DNA of 10,428 bases from a virus (Duplodnaviria > Heunggongvirae > Uroviricota > Caudoviricetes): IMG/VR virus record IMGVR_UViG_2667527698_000006; one strand, written 5' to 3'. The notes beneath the pieces were generated by a model that saw only the letters and a program-made list of their open reading frames with translations, made no database searches and was not told the DNA's origin. Shown here in pieces: positions 873-10,416 of the stretch. Numbering within the stretch: the first letter of the stretch is position 1; each line of letters opens with the position of its first letter. The translations under genes were made by a program, and so were the position numbers.

Positions 873-1235
873 ATGTTAAAGCTATTTGCAAAGTACACAT
901 CTATAGGCGTGCTGAACACACTTATACACTGGGTGGTTTTTGGTGTATGTATCTATGCCGCGCATACCAATCAGGCTATGGCAAACTTCGCAGGTTTCGT
1001 TGTGGCTGTGAGTTTTAGCTTCTTTGCGAATGCAAAATTCACATTCAAAGCATCAACTACAACGATGCGCTACATGTTATATGTCGGGTTCATGGGAACA
1101 CTGAGTGCTACTGTTGGATGGGTTGCTGATAGATGTTCACTTCCTCCAATTGTCACTCTTGTTACCTTCTCCGCCATCAGCTTGGTGTGCGGTTTCGTCT
1201 ATTCAAAGTTCATTGTCTTTAGGGATGCGAAATGA
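873..1235 (+). CDS. gtrA: GtrA, bactoprenol-linked glucose flippase (O-antigen glucosylation / serotype conversion)
   Basis: 120-aa small hydrophobic protein [25 protein letters not shown]...[10 protein letters not shown], near-identical by recollection to GtrA of P22 and Shigella flexneri serotype-converting phages. First gene after attP. Stop overlaps the gtrB start (ATGA at 1232-1235). Confidence 0.95.
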
Positions 1236-2149
1236 AGATATCTCTTGTCGTTCCTGTCTTCAATGAAGAAGAAGCGATACCAATTTTTTATAAAACGGTA
1301 CGTGAATTCGAAGAGTTGAAGCCATATGAAGTAGAAATTGTTTTCATAAATGACGGAAGCAAAGACGCTACGGAGTCAATCATTAACGCTCTGGCTGTTT
1401 CTGATCCGCTAGTTGTTCCGCTGTCATTTACACGCAACTTTGGTAAAGAACCAGCATTGTTTGCAGGGTTAGACCATACAACCGGCGATGCCGTGATTCC
1501 AATTGATGTTGACCTGCAAGACCCGATTGAGGTTATTCCTCATCTTATTGAAAAGTGGCAGGCAGGTGCTGACATGGTGCTTGCTAAACGTTCAGACCGC
1601 TCAACTGATGGACGGCTGAAACGTAAGACAGCTGAGTGGTTCTATAAATTACACAACAAAATAAGCACCCCAAAAATAGAGGAAAATGTCGGAGATTTTC
1701 GACTCATGTCTCGTGAGGTTGTGGAGAACATTAAACTATTGCCTGAGCGCAATCTTTTCATGAAAGGCATACTGAGCTGGGTTGGTGGTCAGACAGATGT
1801 CGTTGAATATGTACGCACAGAGCGTGTTGCTGGCATCTCAAAATTTAATGGCTGGAAATTATGGAATCTGGCACTGGAAGGTATCACAAGTTTTTCAACC
1901 TTTCCTCTTCGCGTATGGACTTATATAGGCTTGTTTGTTGCAAGCATTTCATTTTTATATGGTGCATGGATGATTATAGACACCATTGTCTTTGGTAACC
2001 CAGTACGCGGGTATCCCTCCATGCTTGTATCAATACTTTTCCTGGGTGGAGTGCAACTGATCGGGATTGGTGTTCTCGGTGAATATATAGGTAGAATTTA
2101 TTTAGAAACAAAATCAAGACCACGGTACTTAATTAAAAGCAGAAAATAA
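1232..2149 (+). CDS. gtrB: GtrB, bactoprenol glucosyltransferase (GT2 family)
   Basis: 305 aa. GT2 motifs [15 protein letters not shown] and DVDLQDP, with C-terminal hydrophobic helices ([42 protein letters not shown]). Translationally coupled to gtrA; conserved gtrA-gtrB synteny. Confidence 0.95.
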
Positions 2150-2161
2150 CAGGATGATCTT

Positions 2162-3427
2162 ATGAAGATATTCATAATGCGCAATTGGCACAAGATATCA
2201 ATTTTTATACTTGCATTTACTTTGATTTGGCTTAGGCGCATTGACATTTTGACAAATGCCCAGTTTTGGGCTGAGGATGCAGTTTTTTGGTATAAAGATG
2301 CATACGAACAAGGTTTTTTCAGTTCACTCATAACCCCAAGAAATGGTTATTTTCAAACAGTATCAACACTCATTGTTGGTGCGACGACATTTATTAATCC
2401 AATTTACGCACCATTATTATCAAACTTTTTTGGAATAATAATTAGAGCTATAATTATATGGTTCTTATTTACCGATAGATTTAAATTCCTAAGCACCACA
2501 TCAAAAATCTTCATCTCTGTATATTTAATTTGCATGCCCGGGCTTGATGAAGTCCAAGCCAATATAACAAATGCTCACTGGTATTTATCATTGTATGTTG
2601 CAATGATAATAATATCTGAAGAATCCAAGTCAAAATTATGGAAAGCACATGATTTATTTTTTATAGTATTATCTGGATTGAGCGGTCCATTTATTATATT
2701 CATAATTGCATCATCTGTTTTTAAATATTTACACTTATCAAAAGGAGTAATAAGCATAAGAGGTTTATACTTATTTTATACTCGACTGCCATATTTGGCA
2801 ATGATCTTGTGTGGGCTGATACAGGCAACATCAATAATTCTTACATTTAATGGAACAAGATCACATGCTCCATTAGGATTCAGTTTTGATGTTATGTCAT
2901 CTATAATATCATCTAATGTATTTCTTTTTTCATTTGTCCCTTGGAATATCGCTAATGCTGGATGGGATAATCACCTTTTATCGTACACACTATCAACTTT
3001 AGTAATTACATTATGTGTTTTCATTTATATTAAAGGAAATTGGCAAATGAAAGTGTTTGCCACCCTTCCAATACTTATTGTCGCATTTTCTATGGCAAAA
3101 CCTCAACTGGCAGATTCTGTTCCTCAACTGCCAACACTTGCAACCGGAAACGGGTCAAGGTATTTTGTAAATATTCATATTGCAATTTTTTCATTAATAT
3201 GCGTTTGTTTGTTTCAATGCATAAAGAATAAAACCTTAAAAATATTCTTTAAAATCTATGTTTCAGTCATCCTTATTGCAATGATAAAATTAAACTTTTT
3301 TATAACCCCTCTTCCTGACATGAACTGGTCTCAAGGAGCAGAATTAATAAATAAAGCAAAACATGGAGAAGCCGTCTCATTTACAGTGCTCCCTCCATGG
3401 TTAACTCTTGATTTAATAAAAAAATAA
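2162..3427 (+). CDS. Type-specific O-antigen glucosyltransferase (GtrC-position polytopic membrane protein), specificity undetermined
   Basis: 421-aa, very hydrophobic multi-helix protein immediately downstream of gtrAB, in the position where gtr clusters carry the serotype-specific transferase. The gene is visibly AT-rich compared with gtrAB and the structural genes (judged by eye, not computed), as is typical of horizontally exchanged gtr type genes. AGGA lies 8 nt before the ATG. Confidence 0.8.
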   Translation: MKIFIMRNWHKISIFILAFTLIWLRRIDILTNAQFWAEDAVFWYKDAYEQGFFSSLITPRNGYFQTVSTLIVGATTFINPIYAPLLSNFFGIIIRAIIIWFLFTDRFKFLSTTSKIFISVYLICMPGLDEVQANITNAHWYLSLYVAMIIISEESKSKLWKAHDLFFIVLSGLSGPFIIFIIASSVFKYLHLSKGVISIRGLYLFYTRLPYLAMILCGLIQATSIILTFNGTRSHAPLGFSFDVMSSIISSNVFLFSFVPWNIANAGWDNHLLSYTLSTLVITLCVFIYIKGNWQMKVFATLPILIVAFSMAKPQLADSVPQLPTLATGNGSRYFVNIHIAIFSLICVCLFQCIKNKTLKIFFKIYVSVILIAMIKLNFFITPLPDMNWSQGAELINKAKHGEAVSFTVLPPWLTLDLIKK

Positions 3428-3493: not shown

Positions 3494-5209
3494 TTATAGT
3501 AGCCTGGTAATGCTAAATGCAAACGAACTGGAGATTCCTGCTCCGCTAAGCGTATTGCGCAGGGTCACCCTAAATGTATCTACGCCAATATAAGTAACAT
3601 CACAACTAACTGAATCAGGCGCAGATATAGGTGTTATCTGCACAATATAACCGCTAGCAACTGCTGCGAGCGGATGAGAAAAGCTAACCTCATACACACC
3701 TGTAGCAACCACGTTAACCGATGAAACACCAGTAGCAACGTCGATACTACCATTGGCGTTAATTTTTCCCGAGCGTGTGACTGACAATGCAGAAGCCGAT
3801 GTTGCCTTACTGGTTGTTTCTGTAAAAACACACCCAATGTCAACTACCTCGCAATTAGCTCCTGTTATCCAGTATGGTCGATCTGCACTTGGCTGATAAT
3901 CCCCTGCGCTCTGGAACGTTGTGCCGTTGAGTATGACTGTAACTTTTCCCCCACCTGAGCTTGTTACTTGAATATTAGTGTGCGTGTATCTTGCACTGCT
4001 CACGCGATGAAAATTTCCACCGTTTATAACCACAGTTACAGGGCGCGTCCCAGTATTATCTATAGCAAGGTCTGCCCCCCCGGCATTAGCCTCAAAGTAT
4101 GGGTTGTTTAATACCAAAGCGCACGAACCGTTAAGGCCATTTATGGCTAATTGCGCACCACCTGTACTGGAATCCCCCTGAGTACCATTTCCTTCACAAG
4201 TCAGGCTATTGATAGTTGTACCAGCACCCCAGCGGTCCCCGAGGATACCCCATTCACTGTTCTGACTGCACGTAAGCCTATTTGCAGTTATAGCGTTCAG
4301 TTCAGAATGATTTACGGAGTTGGTAGCACGCCAACCGATACGATTACTCTGCAAGTACACGTTCGTCATGTCGCTCGTGAGCATCGAGTCAGTGCGTAAC
4401 CCTTCCCCGTCAGGGTGGCGGCAGATAACAATGTTTTCAAGACGAGTATGTGCTTTATTCTGCACCAGCATACCGTAACTTCCGGGATTCCCTTTCAGCG
4501 TCATGTTGCCGATGTAGTCATATGCAGCCAATCTCTGACTGTTAAACGCTGCGTCACCTAGCATTTTTACGTTAAAATCAGTAGCTCTACATTCCAGTAT
4601 TGTCTCAGCCATGTTCTCGCCTGAGTAAAAACAGCGGACACCCGGAGCACCTACAAAGTCGGCAGGGTAATCATCATAATTAAGTACCAGAGGAGTGGTA
4701 ACATCATACACCCCTTGCTTTATTTTTAATGTTCCACCGAAAGGCCACGATGTAAGCGGGTCTTGATATATTTCATTTTTTATTGCAAATAGCTCATCTT
4801 GAAGATTTTTCCCGCTATTAGTGCCAATGTAAGTAGCCCCTTCATCAGATTGAAGTAACTGCAGAAGCTGTTCAGGGTCATACTTCAGCAAATTCGGAAA
4901 ATAGAACTGTTGCGAACCATACGCATCATATACAGCCATTGAATGGCCTTGCTCAGTTACAAATTTGGCAATCTGCCCGTTATATACCGGATAACCAGCA
5001 GCGTTAATGATGATTGGTTGAGAAACAGGAACGTGATAACCATCTTCGTTCTCCACATAAACCTGAATCTGGTTTTCAGGATTTACAGGGTCAGTGTCAA
5101 TTTTACCAATATAAATTTTACCATTGGCTACGGCTTTAAAAGAACGAGCCATAGTGAATAGTTGCGAAGGCATGCTTACCACAACATTGGCATTTATTGA
5201 ATCTGTCAT
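3494..5209 (-). CDS. Tailspike protein: P22 gp9-family N-terminal head-binding domain fused to a divergent C-terminal receptor-binding/depolymerase domain
   Basis: I place the start at ATG 5209 ([57 protein letters not shown]...), preceded by GAGA, not at the 15-codon-longer ORF-track start. The first ~115 aa closely match my recollection of the head-binding domain of HK620/Sf6/P22 tailspikes. The remainder is rich in Gly/Asn/Thr/Ser with repeated short beta-strand-like segments ([14 protein letters not shown]), consistent with a beta-helix, but not recognisable to me as the P22, Sf6 or HK620 domain. Confidence 0.9.
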
Positions 5210-5260
5210 TTTAATTTCTCTATATGTTAAGCAAGCAATATTCATTGCTAGCATGTTTTT

Positions 5261-5268
5261 TGTATAAT
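5261..5268 (+). promoter_or_regulatory. Candidate extended -10 promoter element (TGTATAAT) for the HNH endonuclease gene
   Basis: TGnTATAAT consensus at 5261-5268. A weak -35-like TTCATT at 5241-5246 gives a 16-nt spacer. AAGGTGG ribosome-binding site at 5285-5291, 5 nt before ATG 5297. Confidence 0.4.
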
Positions 5269-5296
5269 GAGTGAACTTTATTTAAAGGTGGTTAAC

Positions 5297-5806
5297 ATGA
5301 ACTGGAACGAAGTATTCGTATTAAAAGACGATGGACTCCTGTACTGGAGTGACCAATATCTCTCAAGACCCAAAATGTTCAATATCTCTAAAGAAAAGCC
5401 TGCAGGACATATATTCAAGGACAAGAACAGGAAAACATCTTATATAATTATCAGGTATCAAGATAAAATATACGCCGCTCATAGGATAATATGGGAAATG
5501 TTTTATGGTGAAATCCCTTCAGGAATGCAAATTGACCATAAAGATGGTAATGGGTTAAATAATTCAATAGACAACCTGCGTCTAGTTAGTCTCGGTGAAA
5601 ACCTAAAAAACAAATCTAAATACACAAACAATACATCTGGGTGCGCAGGTGTTTCATGGCATAAGACCCATAAAAAGTGGGTGGCATATATTAGCGACGC
5701 AGGGAAGCGCATTAATCTCGGATACTTTAAGAGTCTCGATGATGCAATTGCTGTAAGGCGTGAGGCTGAAAAGACCTATGGTTATCATGAGAATCATGGT
5801 AGGTGA
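5297..5806 (+). CDS. HNH endonuclease with C-terminal AP2 DNA-binding domain (putative free-standing homing endonuclease)
   Basis: HNH_3-type motif AAHRIIWEMFYGEIPSGMQIDHKDGNGLNNSIDNLRLVSLGEN (His codon 5537-5539, terminal Asn 5600-5602), followed by an AP2-like module SGCAGVSWHKTHKKWVAYISDAGKRINLGYFKSLDDAIAVRREAEKTYG. I prefer the start at ATG 5297, which has a good RBS, over ORF-track 5267, which overlaps the -10 element. The gene is AT-rich. Confidence 0.8.
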   Translation: MNWNEVFVLKDDGLLYWSDQYLSRPKMFNISKEKPAGHIFKDKNRKTSYIIIRYQDKIYAAHRIIWEMFYGEIPSGMQIDHKDGNGLNNSIDNLRLVSLGENLKNKSKYTNNTSGCAGVSWHKTHKKWVAYISDAGKRINLGYFKSLDDAIAVRREAEKTYGYHENHGR

Positions 5807-5937
5807 TATCTGACATTTCATTGCTCCAGACGAATGATATGATGCAACCATGATGTGATTGCATACCGAAATGGTACTATTGAGTATTTATCCAGTAGGT
5901 TACGATGCCATTCCACCCAACTGGTGAGGCATCAAGG

Positions 5938-6198
5938 ATGTACAGCAAATACGACGAGGCGCAGTTTCACTTGAGACTTCCGCATGAACTCCACGCGAAA
6001 ATTAAACAGCGTGCGAAGATGAATAACAGGTCGCTGAACTCAGAGATAATTGCAGCGATTGAAGAATCACTGGATAAACAAAACTCTGCATCAGTTTACA
6101 TTGACGATGCAGAGCGTATGGCAGAACAACAATCCGATATGGTTAAGAAAATTGTCTTTGATACGCTCAAAGAGCTATATAAAAAAGACAGCAGCTAA
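5938..6198 (+). CDS. mnt: Mnt-like ribbon-helix-helix repressor (Arc/MetJ superfamily) with C-terminal coiled-coil tetramerisation domain
   Basis: 86 aa. N-terminal RHH region AQFHLRLPHELHAKIKQRAKMNNRSLNSEIIAAIEESL. The C-terminal DDAERMAEQQSDMVKKIVFDTLKELYKK closely resembles my recollection of P22 Mnt (...DAERLADEQSELVKKMVFDTLKDLYKK). I prefer the start at ATG 5938, which has GGTGAGG 8 nt upstream, over ORF-track 5905. Orientation and position (convergent with gene 16, divergent from tailspike) match P22 immI synteny. Confidence 0.85.
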   Translation: MYSKYDEAQFHLRLPHELHAKIKQRAKMNNRSLNSEIIAAIEESLDKQNSASVYIDDAERMAEQQSDMVKKIVFDTLKELYKKDSS

Positions 6199-6287
6199 CC
6201 ATCAGTTACGGAGGATTTATGCAAAGAGATATGCTGAATATTGCGTTCTACATATTTGGTTTTTGCACGTTCCTGGTGTTTGCGAAG

Positions 6288-8285
6288 CTATTCTGACAAC
6301 GCATCAGACTTGGCACCCTGAGTCAGGGCGTTAATGGCCTTTTGCGCCTGCTGCATGGCTTTCTCAAACGCTGTTGATCCGCGTGGGGTGTTTGCCATTC
6401 GGAGCATTGCATTTCTGAATGGTTCGCTCTCATAGGCGCGAGTAAGAAGTCCGTAGCTTACTGCTGCGCCAGTTGTCGCCGGGTTCATTGCCGTCCCATA
6501 CCCGATAATGAACGGGATGGTTTGCTGCCCTGTTGGTGTTGTTACTGCCGCTTTTGCTGCCTGCTGAGTGGACTGAAGGTAATTTTTCAATCCTTTCAGA
6601 TAAGCAGCGTCCTGCCCCTTAAATGTGATGCCAGTCTGGTTTTGCAGGATGTTAAGCTGCCGAAGGAACTGGTCAGGGGATCCGCCAGATTTCTCCATCG
6701 CCTTTCCAATGATGCCATTGCGCATTTGCACCCTGCCAACACGACCAACTGAGTTATACAGCGTCTTAATTTCCGATTTGTTCTTGCTGAATAGCATGTT
6801 GTTGACAACTTCCGGCGTCAGGTCGCCTTTCATGAGAACATTCTTCAGCCTGGTATTCTTTAGTTTCGCCGCTTCGTCAGCGTAGACGGCATTGGCCTGC
6901 TGATATTTACGGAGAGTATCGTTGCCAAGATTCTGACCAATGGCACCATTGATATCGTCGGTCATCGCCTTGTAAACGCGCTGAATGGCAGCATCGGAAC
7001 GGTTTGGTAACACTGGTCGCTCACCCTTCACGTCCATTCTGAACTGACTGCGCAGGTCGCTTAATTGCTTCAAATCCAGATTTACCGGACCTTCAGGGCC
7101 AGCATTGCGAACAAGCTCATCACGATATGACTGAAGTTTTGAAATTGTCTCGTTATCAGCCACCTTACCAAGCTTCTGCAGGTTAGATATTTCTGTATCA
7201 ATCTGCTGAATTGCTCGCGCAGGCTGAATGTTTACTCCAGCCATAGCATTCTGAACCTGCTCCAGTCGATTACCGGCGGCACGACGAATTCCTGATGTTT
7301 TCGCTTTAAGGCTGTCAATAACAACCGCTGGATCATACTCCCCGAATTTATCAGCAAATCTCTGCACCAACTGGCTTCTCGCTTCCTGTTGCGTTGCTCT
7401 CATTCCGCTTGTTCCAGCCAGAGGGATATTTTCTGCTGTAGTCTGCGCCATTTTTCCGACGCGGGAAGTTGGTTGTAACAGGTCTGTGGTGTGCAGAGGA
7501 ACTCCTTCACGCTCTGCAAATCTGATAGCCTGCTGCGCTTCTGGCGCGATAGCGCCACGAACGCCACGATAAGCAGCACCTAATCCACGTCCGGCAGCGT
7601 TAATAGCACCGCCAGCAAGTACACCAACGCCTAAATCGGTGGCGAGTGCTTCCGCATCATCTTTCGCACTATTTGCAGCAAGTGATCCAACTGCGTTTTC
7701 AGCGAGAAGGCGAGTTGCCCCCTGAGCAATTCGACCAGCAAGTGTTGGTGCCTGTGCTGCCGCTCTCTCAACGCCAGCAGGAGTGAGGTAAGGCAATGCT
7801 TCAGCAAATACCCTTCCCTCTGTCGTTTGTGGAGTCAGCGCACCTTGCTGAAGGCCAAAGTCCTGCTCTAATCCCTGCGTTGTTACTCGTGGCGCTGGTT
7901 GATATGTCCCATCGCCAATGCCGAGTTTACCGCCAGCCCAAGCCGCCGCGCTCGTTACAGCATCGGCAACTGATGCAGGTATATTTGCCACGTTCACGCC
8001 AGCCTGCACCAGTCCGCGACCAGTCTCTTTTACTGCTTCGCCAAGATCAGACATAAATCCACTTTGCTGTGGTTGTTGCTGTGCTACTGGTTGTTGTGTC
8101 TCCACTGGCTGCACAGATGGCAATGGATAGGCAGCATAGAAAGCTTGCTTAGCCTGCTCTGCATTTTCTCCGGCTTGCGGGGCCACGACTTCATTGAAGT
8201 ATTGCTCCTGAGCCTGCGCTTTTTGTTCTGGTGCTAACGCCTGATACTGTGGAGAGGCGATAACATCTTTCCATGCTTTAGCCAT
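6288..8285 (-). CDS. Ejection (DNA-injection) protein, P22 gp16-like
   Basis: 665 aa, Ala/Gln/Gly-rich, last gene of a 7-20-16 collinear block upstream of the immI/tailspike region, as in P22. Start ATG (8285-8283) overlaps the stop of the preceding gene (TAATG), indicating translational coupling. Confidence 0.8.
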   Translation of the reverse strand: MAKAWKDVIASPQYQALAPEQKAQAQEQYFNEVVAPQAGENAEQAKQAFYAAYPLPSVQPVETQQPVAQQQPQQSGFMSDLGEAVKETGRGLVQAGVNVANIPASVADAVTSAAAWAGGKLGIGDGTYQPAPRVTTQGLEQDFGLQQGALTPQTTEGRVFAEALPYLTPAGVERAAAQAPTLAGRIAQGATRLLAENAVGSLAANSAKDDAEALATDLGVGVLAGGAINAAGRGLGAAYRGVRGAIAPEAQQAIRFAEREGVPLHTTDLLQPTSRVGKMAQTTAENIPLAGTSGMRATQQEARSQLVQRFADKFGEYDPAVVIDSLKAKTSGIRRAAGNRLEQVQNAMAGVNIQPARAIQQIDTEISNLQKLGKVADNETISKLQSYRDELVRNAGPEGPVNLDLKQLSDLRSQFRMDVKGERPVLPNRSDAAIQRVYKAMTDDINGAIGQNLGNDTLRKYQQANAVYADEAAKLKNTRLKNVLMKGDLTPEVVNNMLFSKNKSEIKTLYNSVGRVGRVQMRNGIIGKAMEKSGGSPDQFLRQLNILQNQTGITFKGQDAAYLKGLKNYLQSTQQAAKAAVTTPTGQQTIPFIIGYGTAMNPATTGAAVSYGLLTRAYESEPFRNAMLRMANTPRGSTAFEKAMQQAQKAINALTQGAKSDALSE

Positions 8286-9714
8286 TAATCACCCCATAGT
8301 GAAGAAAAGTTACTGCTGGCTGCTGGCTGTGATACCTGTGCAGGTTGAGATTGCTTCCGCTGAGATTTACCAACATTAACGTTATATTGTTGGTTGTAAT
8401 TGTTGGTGTATTCCTGAATCTCACGAATCGACTGCTGCATAGCCTCCGGGCTTGAATAGTCAACCTGCGGCATCCCCTGAAAATACATCTTCGCTTCTGC
8501 AACGGTGTTAATACCACTGGCACCCATGTCCCTTGCTGCCGCCACACCCTGATTCTGCATTCTGCCCTGAATACGTTGTGCTGAGTTATATAACTGGCGC
8601 TGCTCTTTTCCCGTTAATCGGCTGCGAACATCAGCACCAATTGCTGGATTACCTGCACCACCTGTCATTCCTGTCATGAAATCGAGAGCAGAAGCGTCTG
8701 CATTTGCGATCGCGTCGATATCCTTCTTCATGGCATAGTTTTGTGCTGATGCAGACGATGTTGCAGGCGCAGCGATTGAACTGGCAGGGACGCGAACCAT
8801 ATTCCCATCGTTGTCGATGCCTTCGTAGAACGCATTAGCCCCAGCGCCATGAAGCTTCCCGCCTACCGTTACAGTTCTGCCATCTGATAACTGAACTGTA
8901 CGCTCATCATTCCCAGCGATTCCTCTTGTTGACGCTCGCTGCATTGCCAAATCCTGACCTCGTCGCGCAGTAGAAGCAGATAAGTCCTGACCGCGCATCG
9001 TGATGTTCTGGCCTCGTGCTGTTAGCGCCTCGCCAGCCTGATTGCTGCGGATTGTCTCTGCAAGTTTCCCGCGATCAATCTCACGACCAGCCATCTTGTC
9101 CTGAACATTGAAGTAATCAATTGGACCAAGAGCAGCCATTCCAAGGTGATCAACAAACTCACCAAATCCTGAAGGGTTCTGCTGATACATCTGAGCAACG
9201 TTATTAGGGTCAACACCGACGCGCGCCAGCTCATTGGCGTTGTTTTGCAGCCATGATTGCATTGCTTCTGGAGAAGATGACGCAAGACGTGCGCCAGCCG
9301 CTAATGTACCGATAGAATTACGCTGGTCTTCATCAATGAATCCCATGCCTTTACGAACGGATTCAATCTGGTCTGGATATTGAGTAGCCAACTGACGCAA
9401 AGCACCGCGATCACCAGAAGCATAAGCATTAGCGTATGCCTGCTGAAATTCTTTCTGCCGCTGAGCCTGCTTTTCCTGCTGAAACACCCCCGCAATACCT
9501 GAAAGGCCTTGCAAAGCAGTCAGCCCAACATTGTTAGCGCCTGAACGCTCAATATCATTGTTCTGCCTGATAAGCTGAAGNNNNNNNNNNNNNNNNNNNN
9601 NNNNNNNNNNNNNNNNNNNNNNNNNNNNNNNNNNNNNNNNNNNNNNNNNNNNNNNNNNNNNNNNNNNNNNNNNNNNNNNNNNNNNNNNNNATTTGATCCT
9701 TGCCAAGTAGCCAT
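8285..9714 (-). CDS. Ejection protein, P22 gp20-like; coding sequence interrupted by a 110-nt N run, true length and frame across the gap unknown
   Basis: Probable start ATG at 9714 (MATWQGSN...), with GGGG RBS 5 nt upstream and 9 nt after the gp7 stop. Downstream of the gap the long open frame (…[20 protein letters not shown]… to stop at 8285-8287) continues. The ORF-track N-terminus MGRWHW... lies inside gene 7 in another frame and is an artefact of reading through N. Confidence 0.75.
9581..9690. other. Assembly/scaffold gap (110 N)
   Basis: Uninterrupted run of n characters. Confidence 0.99.
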
Positions 9715-9723
9715 GATTACCCC

Positions 9724-10416
9724 TTAAAACAACGAGCCAAGCAATCCGATACCAGCACCAATGCCAGCGCCCCAAGGTGTTGATGTTCCCAAAAGGCTGG
9801 CAAGACCTGCACCGGCAATCGCACCAGACGTTCCGCCACTAATTGCTGTCTGAAGACTTGATGGTTTGTTGGCATTAGCAGCGGCAAGAGCTGCGCTTTG
9901 CTGTGCAATGCTGCTCATGTTGTTGGCGTACGTCTGCCCGGCGTTTGCCTGACCTTGCAGCGCACCAAGCCCAACGTTTGCCAGATTGTTGTAATTGCTC
10001 ATCTGGTTTGATAACCAAGACTGACCGAGTGTCGGCGCGATCGTAGCCAGTTGATTGCTTGTGGCTGTCGAACCAAGTCCACCCGTCGCCTCCGCAGCAG
10101 CAAGACTCTGGTAACGCGCCTGACCTGCAAGGTCTTTATACTGCTGAGAGTTGTAATACTGATTAAGTGCCTGCCCCTGACCTTCTAAACTGGAAAGATT
10201 CTGCAACTGGTTAACATACTGCTCCGCAAGAGGCGTGAACGGAGCAAGGTTTTTCATGATCGTCTGCCACTGCTGATTTTGCAGGTCTGCTGCATACTTC
10301 TGAGCTTCTGCGGCATACTTTGCGCTTTTATCAGAACTTCCACCTTTCCCACCCTTTTCAGGGCAATAAGGTTCCTCGCCGCGCAGTTTTCTGCCCAGCT
10401 TAAATGCATATAACAT
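9724..10416 (-). CDS. Ejection protein, P22 gp7-like
   Basis: 230 aa (P22 gp7 is about 229 aa by recollection), MLYAFKLGRKLRGEEPYCPEKGGKGG... with a Gly/Ala-rich hydrophobic C-terminus. GGAG RBS 7 nt upstream of ATG 10416. First gene of the 7-20-16 block. Confidence 0.8.
   Translation of the reverse strand: MLYAFKLGRKLRGEEPYCPEKGGKGGSSDKSAKYAAEAQKYAADLQNQQWQTIMKNLAPFTPLAEQYVNQLQNLSSLEGQGQALNQYYNSQQYKDLAGQARYQSLAAAEATGGLGSTATSNQLATIAPTLGQSWLSNQMSNYNNLANVGLGALQGQANAGQTYANNMSSIAQQSAALAAANANKPSSLQTAISGGTSGAIAGAGLASLLGTSTPWGAGIGAGIGLLGSLF

What the first reader, a model, noticed from the sequence alone, without database searches (positions are those of the whole stretch)
5807..6198. Orphan Mnt-like repressor with altered DNA-reading strand and no obvious target operon
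The C-terminal tetramerisation helix is strongly P22 Mnt-like, but the N-terminal beta-strand that reads the operator differs (here AQFHLRLP versus my recollection of P22 PHFNFRMP), implying a different operator specificity. Its canonical target, the ant promoter, appears absent. The upstream 130 bp is repeat-rich (ATGAT at 5834, 5839 and 5850; a 6-bp inverted repeat ATGCAA 5842-5847 / TTGCAT 5859-5864), which may contain its operator. Mnt could have been re-purposed to control the HNH gene or late read-through into the tailspike.
Basis: partly seen in the sequence, partly recalled or inferred. Interest (0 to 1): 0.45.

Follow-up and report, generated by a model that had tools for sequence, protein, structure and literature searches.

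The report
Ant-less Mnt repressor with own operator

Summary
The ORF at 5938-6198 (+) is a genuine Mnt-family repressor. It has an Arc-like ribbon-helix-helix domain and the Mnt tetramerisation helix. Its DNA-reading strand (AQFHLRLP) differs from P22's (PHFNFRMP), and arc, ant and the Pant promoter are absent.

It is not unusual. The exact protein occurs on 645 public contigs, and mnt-only "ant morons" are already described for phages L, ST64T and others.

Comparative data place the likely operator at 5863-5877 (ATACCGAAATGGTAC), at the position of P22's Mnt operator and next to a Pmnt-like promoter. All 100 distinct upstream sequences of QFHLRL-type mnt genes carry it with at most 3 mismatches.

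Three strand classes pair with three operators:
- HFNFRM with GGTCCACnGTGGACC
- QFNLRL with GACCACnGTGGTC
- QFHLRL with TACCnAAAyGGTA

In 209 distinct loci, the P22 class always had ant. Both Gln classes never did.

The ATGCAA/TTGCAT repeat is real, but it behaves like a minus-strand RNA hairpin in the old tailspike leader, not an Mnt site.

The HNH gene is an independent mobile cassette inserted into the tailspike 5' end, not an Mnt target.

The likeliest mechanism is autoregulation. A role in controlling transcription into the tailspike is possible. The biological role of the gene is unproven.

The parts
5938..6198 (+). mnt-like gene: 86-aa ribbon-helix-helix repressor with an Mnt-type C-terminal tetramerisation helix. 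The DNA-reading strand is QFHLRL.
   Evidence: Pfam Arc and Repressor_Mnt. PDB 1mnt and 1qey. PGAP calls the same start. The exact protein is on 645 contigs. dN/dS of the N-terminal domain is 0.01-0.11 with dS saturated.
5863..5877 (.). Predicted Mnt operator ATACCGAAATGGTAC, centred on 5870. The 17-bp equivalent of P22 Omnt is 5862-5878. TACC and GGTA are symmetric.
   Evidence: It occupies the position of the annotated P22 mnt operator, directly before TATTGAG. It is conserved across E. coli, Salmonella, Buttiauxella, Serratia and Citrobacter. Information content is 1.81 bits per position against 0.93 for the left flank, over 100 distinct sequences. Of 119 evaluable exact hits in IMG/VR, 115 precede an xQFHLRL Mnt. 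It is the only site in the window and in the whole Sf101 genome.
5880..5906 (+). Pmnt-like promoter: -35 TTGAGT (5880-5885) and -10 TACGAT (5901-5906), with a 15-bp spacer here and 17 bp in most relatives.
   Evidence: A PWM scan recovers P22 Pmnt and Pant as controls. It finds the homologous + strand promoter in every ant-less locus, and no conserved - strand promoter. This is a prediction only.
5904..5933 (.). Conserved inverted repeat GATGCC (5904-5909) / GGCATC (5928-5933), bracketing the Shine-Dalgarno GGTGAGG (5923-5929). Function unknown.
   Evidence: Present in all ant-less classes and absent from P22. It forms a stem in the - strand fold.
5842..5864 (-). It lies in what was the tailspike leader before the HNH insertion.
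   Evidence: Variants keep pairing on the - strand through G.U pairs: 96.7% of cells paired against 85.6% on the + strand. Other lineages carry a different hairpin at the same place, more stable on the - strand in 62 of 98 distinct sequences against 31 on the + strand. The fold z-score is only -1.
5802..5816 (-). Remnant of the ancestral tailspike start codon and first 5 codons (ATGTCAGATATCACC = MSDIT).
   Evidence: Identical to the real tailspike start in HNH-less relatives: E. coli W, Sf101 and IME10.
5189..5801 (+). Mobile HNH cassette, not part of the Mnt system. It holds a replacement tailspike 5' end and leader, a promoter TTCATT-16-TATAAT (5241-5268), and the HNH_3 endonuclease ORF 5297-5806.
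   Evidence: Presence/absence polymorphism at the same site. HNH_3 2.3e-20. PHROG 99 at 3e-59. The same cassette occurs next to ant-arc-mnt in L011.
6219..6296 (+). Unannotated 25-codon ORF (MQRDMLNIAFYIFGFCTFLVFAKLF) 21 nt downstream of mnt, with a GGAGG Shine-Dalgarno. It may be co-transcribed with mnt.
   Evidence: Intact at 25 aa in all 98 occurrences found among the fetched loci. There are 14 distinct synonymous changes on 15 synonymous sites against 18 nonsynonymous on 60 sites. No PHROG hit.
3494..5209 (-). Tailspike gene, the gene that faces mnt. The true start is the ATG at 5209 ([10 protein letters not shown]).
   Evidence: Pfam Head_binding 1.2e-62. Alignment to E. coli W.

Best explanation
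The gene at 5938-6198 encodes an Mnt-family repressor of a common natural specificity class, with the DNA-reading strand QFHLRL. By homology with P22 Mnt it is a tetramer made of two ribbon-helix-helix dimers.

Its cognate site is the single 15-bp pseudo-palindrome ATACCGAAATGGTAC at 5863-5877. This site lies where P22 keeps its Mnt operator, directly upstream of the -35 of the gene's own promoter (TTGAGT-15-TACGAT). It is centred about 43 bp upstream of the predicted start.

The locus is the surviving half of an immI switch. The arc-ant-Pant half was deleted in an ancestor, which left mnt back to back with the tailspike gene. Later, an unrelated mobile HNH cassette inserted into the tailspike 5' end and pushed the two apart.

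The protein therefore acts locally. It autoregulates its own small transcription unit (mnt, here possibly with a 25-codon membrane-peptide ORF). It also sits bound in the path of any polymerase travelling from the late operon toward the tailspike.

Shown: family membership, the operator-strand association, loss of ant and Pant, purifying selection, and independence from HNH.

Inferred: binding itself, the sign of autoregulation, and any effect on tailspike expression.
For: Family.

Operator:
- Positional homology with the annotated P22 mnt operator.
- Three strand classes pair with three palindromes at the same place.
- The core is conserved across genera while synonymous sites are saturated.
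- Of 119 evaluable IMG/VR operator hits, 115 sit about 60 nt upstream of an xQFHLRL mnt.
- There is one site per window and per complete phage genome.
- In Citrobacter L018, a stop codon in mnt coincides with a mutated operator.

Promoters: Pmnt is kept and Pant is lost.

Deletion origin: a 3' ant remnant (Ant residues 191-300) lies between the tailspike and this operator in L172 and L268.

Selection: dN/dS is 0.01-0.11.

HNH independence.

Experimental context: an ant-less relative, prophage Gally, expresses mnt from the prophage. mnt rises 40-fold and the tailspike 21-fold in macrophages, while the upstream gp16 is unchanged. A delta-mnt lysogen is viable (PMC9928086).
Against: No binding, footprint or transcription data exist for this class.

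The operator is only partly symmetric here. TACC/GGTA pair, but positions 1/15 and 6/10 do not.

The predicted promoter has a poor 15-bp spacer and a modest score of 7.5, against 13.1 for P22 Pmnt.

Pure autoregulation gives no selective reason to keep the gene, so some other function must exist, and it is not identified.

The 25-codon ORF is absent from Sf101 and from JEP4-type loci, so it cannot be the general payload.

Delta-mnt in Gally had no phenotype in the one assay done.
Confidence: 0.62

Rival explanations
1. Repurposed tailspike governor. Mnt bound at 5863-5877, together with convergent Pmnt transcription and the leader hairpin, limits or conditions transcription entering the tailspike gene. 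That transcription could come from the late operon or from moron promoters. This role is what selection maintains.
For: In all 116 or so operator-bearing loci, the gene facing the operator is the tailspike, or HNH plus tailspike. What lies downstream of mnt varies. A hairpin of varying sequence always lies between the operator and the tailspike ribosome-binding site. In Gally, mnt and the tailspike are co-induced in the lysogen while gp16 is not. Villafane et al. suggested that Mnt and Arc may affect late read-through into gene 9.
Against: No minus-strand promoter is conserved. Adjacency to the tailspike follows automatically from deleting arc-ant. Antiterminated late transcription should ignore a bound repressor. 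In this window the HNH cassette now separates the operator from the tailspike by 650 bp with no evident harm.
Confidence: 0.22
2. The operator lies in the ATGAT repeats and the ATGCAA/TTGCAT inverted repeat (5834-5864), and Mnt controls the HNH gene.
For: The motifs exist at the stated coordinates. The inverted repeat is conserved among close E. coli relatives, and its right arm overlaps the predicted operator by 2 nt (5863-5864).
Against: The motifs are within chance. They are absent from phages with the same beta-strand. The variation fits a minus-strand RNA stem. The HNH promoter lies 600 bp away from, and upstream of, any site, with no operator-like sequence. The HNH cassette occurs with P22-class immI and is missing from most loci of this class.
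Confidence: 0.04
3. Functionless relic. mnt is simply what was left after a deletion and is decaying.
For: Zaworski et al. raised this for phage L. Citrobacter L018 carries a stop codon. Delta-mnt in Gally had no phenotype.
Against: dN/dS is 0.01-0.11 with dS saturated. The ORF is intact on hundreds of contigs. The operator is conserved across genera. Two ant-less classes have each co-evolved a protein-operator pair.
Confidence: 0.07
4. Trans-acting immunity. The prophage keeps Mnt to silence the ant gene of superinfecting relatives, so that they cannot induce it.
For: In P22 this is a known activity of prophage Mnt (own knowledge: Susskind and Botstein).
Against: No ant gene was found under this operator class or under the QFNLRL class. 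The counts were 0 of 128 and 0 of 36 distinct loci, against 44 of 44 for the P22 class. All 115 phage-context operator hits are next to mnt itself.
Confidence: 0.04

Closest known systems
Phage P22 Mnt repressor (immI region; PDB 1MNT, 1QEY)
   Same: Same two-domain architecture. Same genomic slot, between gene 16 and gene 9 and antisense to the late operon. A palindromic site of the same length sits at the same distance from a TTGAG-type -35. The C-terminal helix is 69% identical.
   Different: The N-terminal domain is only 39% identical. Recognition positions change from His/Asn/Arg to Gln/His/Arg, and the N-terminal arm differs. The operator is TACCnAAAyGGTA instead of GGTCCACnGTGGACC. There is no arc, ant, sar or Pant.
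mnt-only 'ant morons' of phages L, ST64T, ST104, ST160, SE1 and Gally
   Same: Same layout: tailspike, hairpin, operator, Pmnt, mnt, with no ant. Their function is also unknown. They are described in PMC2629481 and PMC8022706. Gally has transcriptome and delta-mnt data (PMC9928086).
   Different: Those phages carry the QFNLRL strand and a GACCACnGTGGTC operator. Here an extra Asn-to-His change goes with a different operator. The C-terminal domains are shuffled between lineages.
Phages Sf101 and IME10, and the E. coli W prophage
   Same: The mnt gene and intergenic region are 97-98% identical, with an identical operator.
   Different: They lack the HNH cassette, so mnt directly faces the tailspike start. 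Sf101 also lacks the 25-codon ORF.
P22 Arc repressor
   Same: Same ribbon-helix-helix fold and a related strand (PQFNLRWP). PDB 1arq hit at E 9e-4.
   Different: Arc is 53 aa, has no tetramerisation helix and binds a different 21-bp operator.

Membership tests
P22 Mnt repressor family | N-terminal Arc-like ribbon-helix-helix DNA-binding domain | tested here: met
   Pfam PF03869 at 2.3e-14 over residues 7-48. PDB 1mnt at 1.3e-18 over residues 6-79.
P22 Mnt repressor family | C-terminal Mnt tetramerisation helix | tested here: met
   Pfam PF11423 at 3.4e-14 over residues 57-82. PDB 1qey at 1.6e-8. 69% identity to P22. The oligomeric state itself was not tested.
P22 Mnt repressor family | Gene lies between the ejection-protein gene 16 and the tailspike gene 9, antisense to the late operon | tested here: met
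   ORF map and comparison with the P22 annotation.
P22 Mnt repressor family | Cognate roughly 17-bp palindromic operator next to its own promoter | tested here: inconclusive
   A conserved candidate lies at the homologous position, with strand-operator covariation. Binding was not measured.
P22 immI switch (mnt-arc-ant) | Antirepressor gene ant and the arc gene transcribed divergently from mnt | tested here: not met
   No Ant or Arc homologue in the window. None in 128 distinct loci of this class.
P22 immI switch (mnt-arc-ant) | Strong Pant promoter overlapping the Mnt operator | tested here: not met
   The PWM scan recovers P22 Pant at 15.5. The best minus-strand score here is 5.7, and it is not conserved.
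Ribbon-helix-helix type II antitoxin / ParG-like partition protein (database labels) | Adjacent toxin gene, or a ParA ATPase partner and centromere repeats | tested here: not met
   Only weak generic hits to HicB and FitA ribbon-helix-helix models. No toxin or ATPase gene is adjacent. The 'partition protein ATPase' label comes from PHROG 795.

The most novel reading that the evidence does not exclude
The two Gln-strand Mnt lineages, which lacked ant in every locus sampled, are not relics. Instead they form a dedicated module: repressor, private operator, convergent promoter and leader hairpin. This module sets when and how much tailspike (and nearby moron genes) a prophage expresses, independently of the late operon. 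The macrophage induction seen in Gally hints at this.
Probability: 0.2. Interest if true: 0.55.

Novelty: new member of a known kind. Interest (0 to 1): 0.3.

Why it matters
For this window the finding is mostly tidy annotation. The gene is a common Mnt allele, its likely operator can be named, and the neighbouring HNH gene is an unrelated mobile insertion.

The wider point is modest but useful. Natural Mnt variants form a three-step series of strand changes, each matched to an operator change. That gives a ready-made test set for how beta-sheet readers choose DNA.

The sampled split, with the P22 class always next to ant and both Gln classes never, says that ant-less mnt genes are maintained for some ant-independent job. 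Phage biologists have noted that job but not solved it.

Tried and rejected
- Rfam scan of 5000-6500 found no sar or other known RNA.
- The terminator scan found none in 5100-6400.
- Single-sequence folding of the intergenic region gave z-scores of only about -1 on either strand. The hairpin therefore rests on comparative data only.
- A search for a second operator in the window, in neighbouring loci and in the full Sf101 genome found none.
- A search for a minus-strand, tailspike-directed promoter found nothing conserved.
- The long ORF start at 5905 was rejected.
- The genome-contig scan gave only 9 loci, because the collection holds one genome per species. These were still useful for cross-genus conservation.
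- Adams et al. 1985 on P22 tail gene expression could not be read.
- I did not run structure prediction. The hits to solved Mnt structures made it unnecessary, and the tool folds a single chain, so it could not test the oligomeric state.

Full report
**What is in the window.**
The window is the right arm of a P22-like (Lederbergvirus) prophage, with the late operon on the minus strand. The genes are:
- integrase C-terminus, 59-523
- gtrA, gtrB and a gtrC-like gene, 873-3427
- tailspike, 3494-5209 (-), Head_binding 1.2e-62
- an HNH_3 endonuclease ORF, 5297-5806 (+)
- the Mnt-like ORF, 5938-6198 (+)
- gp16-, gp20- and gp7-like ejection genes, 6288-10416 (-)

**Check of the observation.**
The 86-aa product matches Pfam Arc (2.3e-14, residues 7-48) and Repressor_Mnt (3.4e-14, residues 57-82). 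It also matches the solved Mnt structures 1mnt (1.3e-18) and 1qey (1.6e-8).

The protein is a mosaic. The N-terminal domain is 39% identical to P22 and the C-terminal helix 69%. Phage JEP4 shows the reverse pattern, 82% and 31%.

The start is the ATG at 5938, not 5905. PGAP uses 5938 in E. coli W and 23CRST042. In Escherichia sp. L014 a stop lies immediately upstream.

No Arc, Ant, Rha or KilA homologue exists in the window.

As statistics they are weak. Some 5-mer recurs three times in 49% of shuffles, and an 8/9 inverted repeat appears in 9.6%.

**How common it is.**
The exact protein is on 645 contigs, in a 90%-identity cluster of 681 member sequences. It is named only 'Arc family DNA-binding protein'.

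Of 5426 complete E. coli genomes, 735 match some part of 5100-6320.

Phages IME10 and Sf101 carry the gene and intergenic region at 97-98% identity.

Other published phages also carry an mnt gene directly divergent from the tailspike, with no arc or ant: ST160, Gally, JEP4, VSe13 and L.

The literature already describes this. Villafane et al. call the region the 'ant moron' and note mnt-only versions in ST64T and ST104. [quoted passage not shown]

**The operator.**
In the P22 record the mnt operator is annotated as AGGTCCACCGTGGACCT followed by ATTGAG. TTGAGA there is the -35 of Pmnt.

At the homologous position the window reads ATACCGAAATGGTAC followed by TATTGAG (5863-5877, centre 5870).

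Relatives with the same beta-strand have very different surrounding sequence but keep this element:
- JEP4: ATACCGAAACGGTAC
- VSe13: ATACCTAAATGGTAC
- Buttiauxella: GTACCAAAATGGTAC, a perfect palindrome
- Serratia: ATACCTAAACGGTAC

Over 100 distinct upstream sequences the 15-mer carries 1.81 bits per position, against 0.93 for the 15 nt to its left. Only positions 1, 6 and 10 vary.

Synonymous sites of the gene are saturated between these lineages, while dN/dS is 0.01-0.11. The site is therefore conserved well beyond neutral expectation.

Of 119 evaluable hits, 115 lie about 60 nt upstream of an Mnt with an xQFHLRL strand. The other four are chance hits in unrelated contigs.

The site occurs once in the window and once in the whole Sf101 genome.

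In Citrobacter L018 a stop codon in mnt coincides with a G-to-A change in the GGTA arm.

**Three specificity classes.**
| Strand | Operator | Examples |
|---|---|---|
| HFNFRM | GGTCCAC(C/G)GTGGACC | P22, epsilon34 |
| QFNLRL | GACCACnGTGGTC | ST160, L, Gally |
| QFHLRL | TACCnAAAyGGTA | this window |

In 209 distinct loci with enough flank, ant was present in 44 of 44 of the first class. It was present in 0 of 36 of the second and 0 of 128 of the third. These loci come from top-80 samples of four searches, so the split needs an exhaustive census.

The split argues against a relic, and against a role in silencing incoming ant genes.

L172 and L268 retain the last 110 codons of ant between the tailspike and this operator. 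This shows the arrangement arose by deletion.

**Promoters.**
A simple PWM recovers P22 Pant (15.5) and Pmnt (13.1). Every ant-less locus keeps a plus-strand TTGnnn-17-TAnGAT promoter at the Pmnt position, scoring 8.0-10.5.

The window and its E. coli subtype have a 2-bp deletion, which gives TTGAGT-15-TACGAT with a score of 7.5.

No minus-strand promoter is conserved, and the positions of the Pant hexamers have decayed.

The operator centre is therefore about 43-45 bp upstream of the predicted mnt start, as in P22. From my own knowledge (Vershon et al. 1987), Mnt binding in P22 represses Pant and stimulates Pmnt. The sign of regulation here is unknown.

It extends to ATGCAACCA/TGATTGCAT and is a perfect repeat in IME10.

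Among close relatives the variants are consistent with an RNA stem on the minus strand. The commonest state is a G.U pair on that strand, flanked by A-U and G-C variants. L014 has a double compensatory change. Paired cells are 96.7% on the minus strand and 85.6% on the plus strand.

Phages of the same Mnt class, and of the QFNLRL class, have unrelated sequences at the same place that also form a hairpin. Examples are CCGUAGC/GCUGCGG, CCGCAG/CUGUGG and CCGCAAGG/CCUUGCGG. The hairpin is more stable on the minus strand in 62 distinct sequences and on the plus strand in 31.

This looks like a leader hairpin about 25 nt upstream of the ancestral tailspike ribosome-binding site, not an Mnt site. The evidence is suggestive only, since single-sequence folding gives z of about -1.

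**The HNH gene.**
Alignment with HNH-less E. coli W shows that about 613 bp (5189-5801) are inserted after roughly codon 5 of the tailspike.

The insert supplies a new tailspike start (MTDSINAN) and leader, its own promoter and the HNH ORF. The old start (MSDIT) survives at 5802-5816.

The same cassette, at 99% identity, lies beside a complete P22-type ant-arc-mnt module in E. coli 81, and beside JEP4-type loci. Most loci of this Mnt class lack it.

It behaves as a free-standing homing-endonuclease cassette and is not an Mnt target.

**Experimental context.**
In the ant-less prophage Gally (QFNLRL class), mnt is at background in LB. In macrophages mnt rises 40-fold and the tailspike 21-fold, while the adjacent late gene gp16 is unchanged.

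A delta-mnt lysogen is viable and survives in macrophages like the wild type.

So an ant-less mnt is expressed from the prophage, is not needed to hold lysogeny, and lies in a unit transcribed independently of the late operon.

**Verdict.**
This is a genuine Mnt homologue of a widespread ant-less class.

Autoregulation is the most defensible mechanism. Control of transcription into the tailspike remains possible but unshown.

It is a new member of a known kind and of moderate to low interest.

Noticed in passing
window 5189-5816: The HNH cassette is inserted inside the first codons of the tailspike gene. It carries a replacement start codon and leader, so the tailspike stays intact. The old start (MSDIT) is left as a remnant. 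The same cassette occurs in several different immI contexts, which fits a homing endonuclease that targets the conserved tailspike 5' end.
   Followed up: partly
window 6219-6296 (+): An unannotated 25-codon hydrophobic ORF (MQRDMLNIAFYIFGFCTFLVFAKLF) lies 21 nt after mnt, with a GGAGG Shine-Dalgarno. It is intact in all 98 occurrences found among the fetched loci, with an excess of synonymous change. Its last 9 nt overlap the convergent gp16 gene. It may be a small membrane protein expressed from the prophage.
   Followed up: partly
window 5842-5864 (-) and the equivalent position in L003, L005, L007, L016-L018 and others: A hairpin of lineage-specific sequence always lies between the Mnt operator and the tailspike ribosome-binding site in ant-less phages. 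Its function is unknown. The HNH cassette's new leader has an analogous palindrome at 5231-5252.
   Followed up: partly
window 5904-5933: An inverted repeat GATGCC/GGCATC brackets the mnt Shine-Dalgarno. It is conserved in all ant-less Mnt classes and absent from P22. It is unexplained.
   Followed up: no
L130 3004-5961; also L005, L018 and about 40 viral loci: Many relatives carry a second module downstream of this mnt and convergent with it. It holds Rha/Ant-like and KilA genes, sometimes with arc and two further mnt-like genes. Its transcription would run through mnt and the operator toward the tailspike.
   Followed up: partly
RefSeq records NC_027398, NC_014900, NC_011976 and others: Mnt homologues are labelled 'partition protein ATPase', following the PHROG 795 name. 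This is a propagated mis-annotation for an 83-86-aa ribbon-helix-helix repressor.
   Followed up: yes
window, roughly 9580-9714: A run of N (masked or unresolved bases) lies inside the gp20-like ejection gene. It appears as a run of X in the ORF translations.
   Followed up: no
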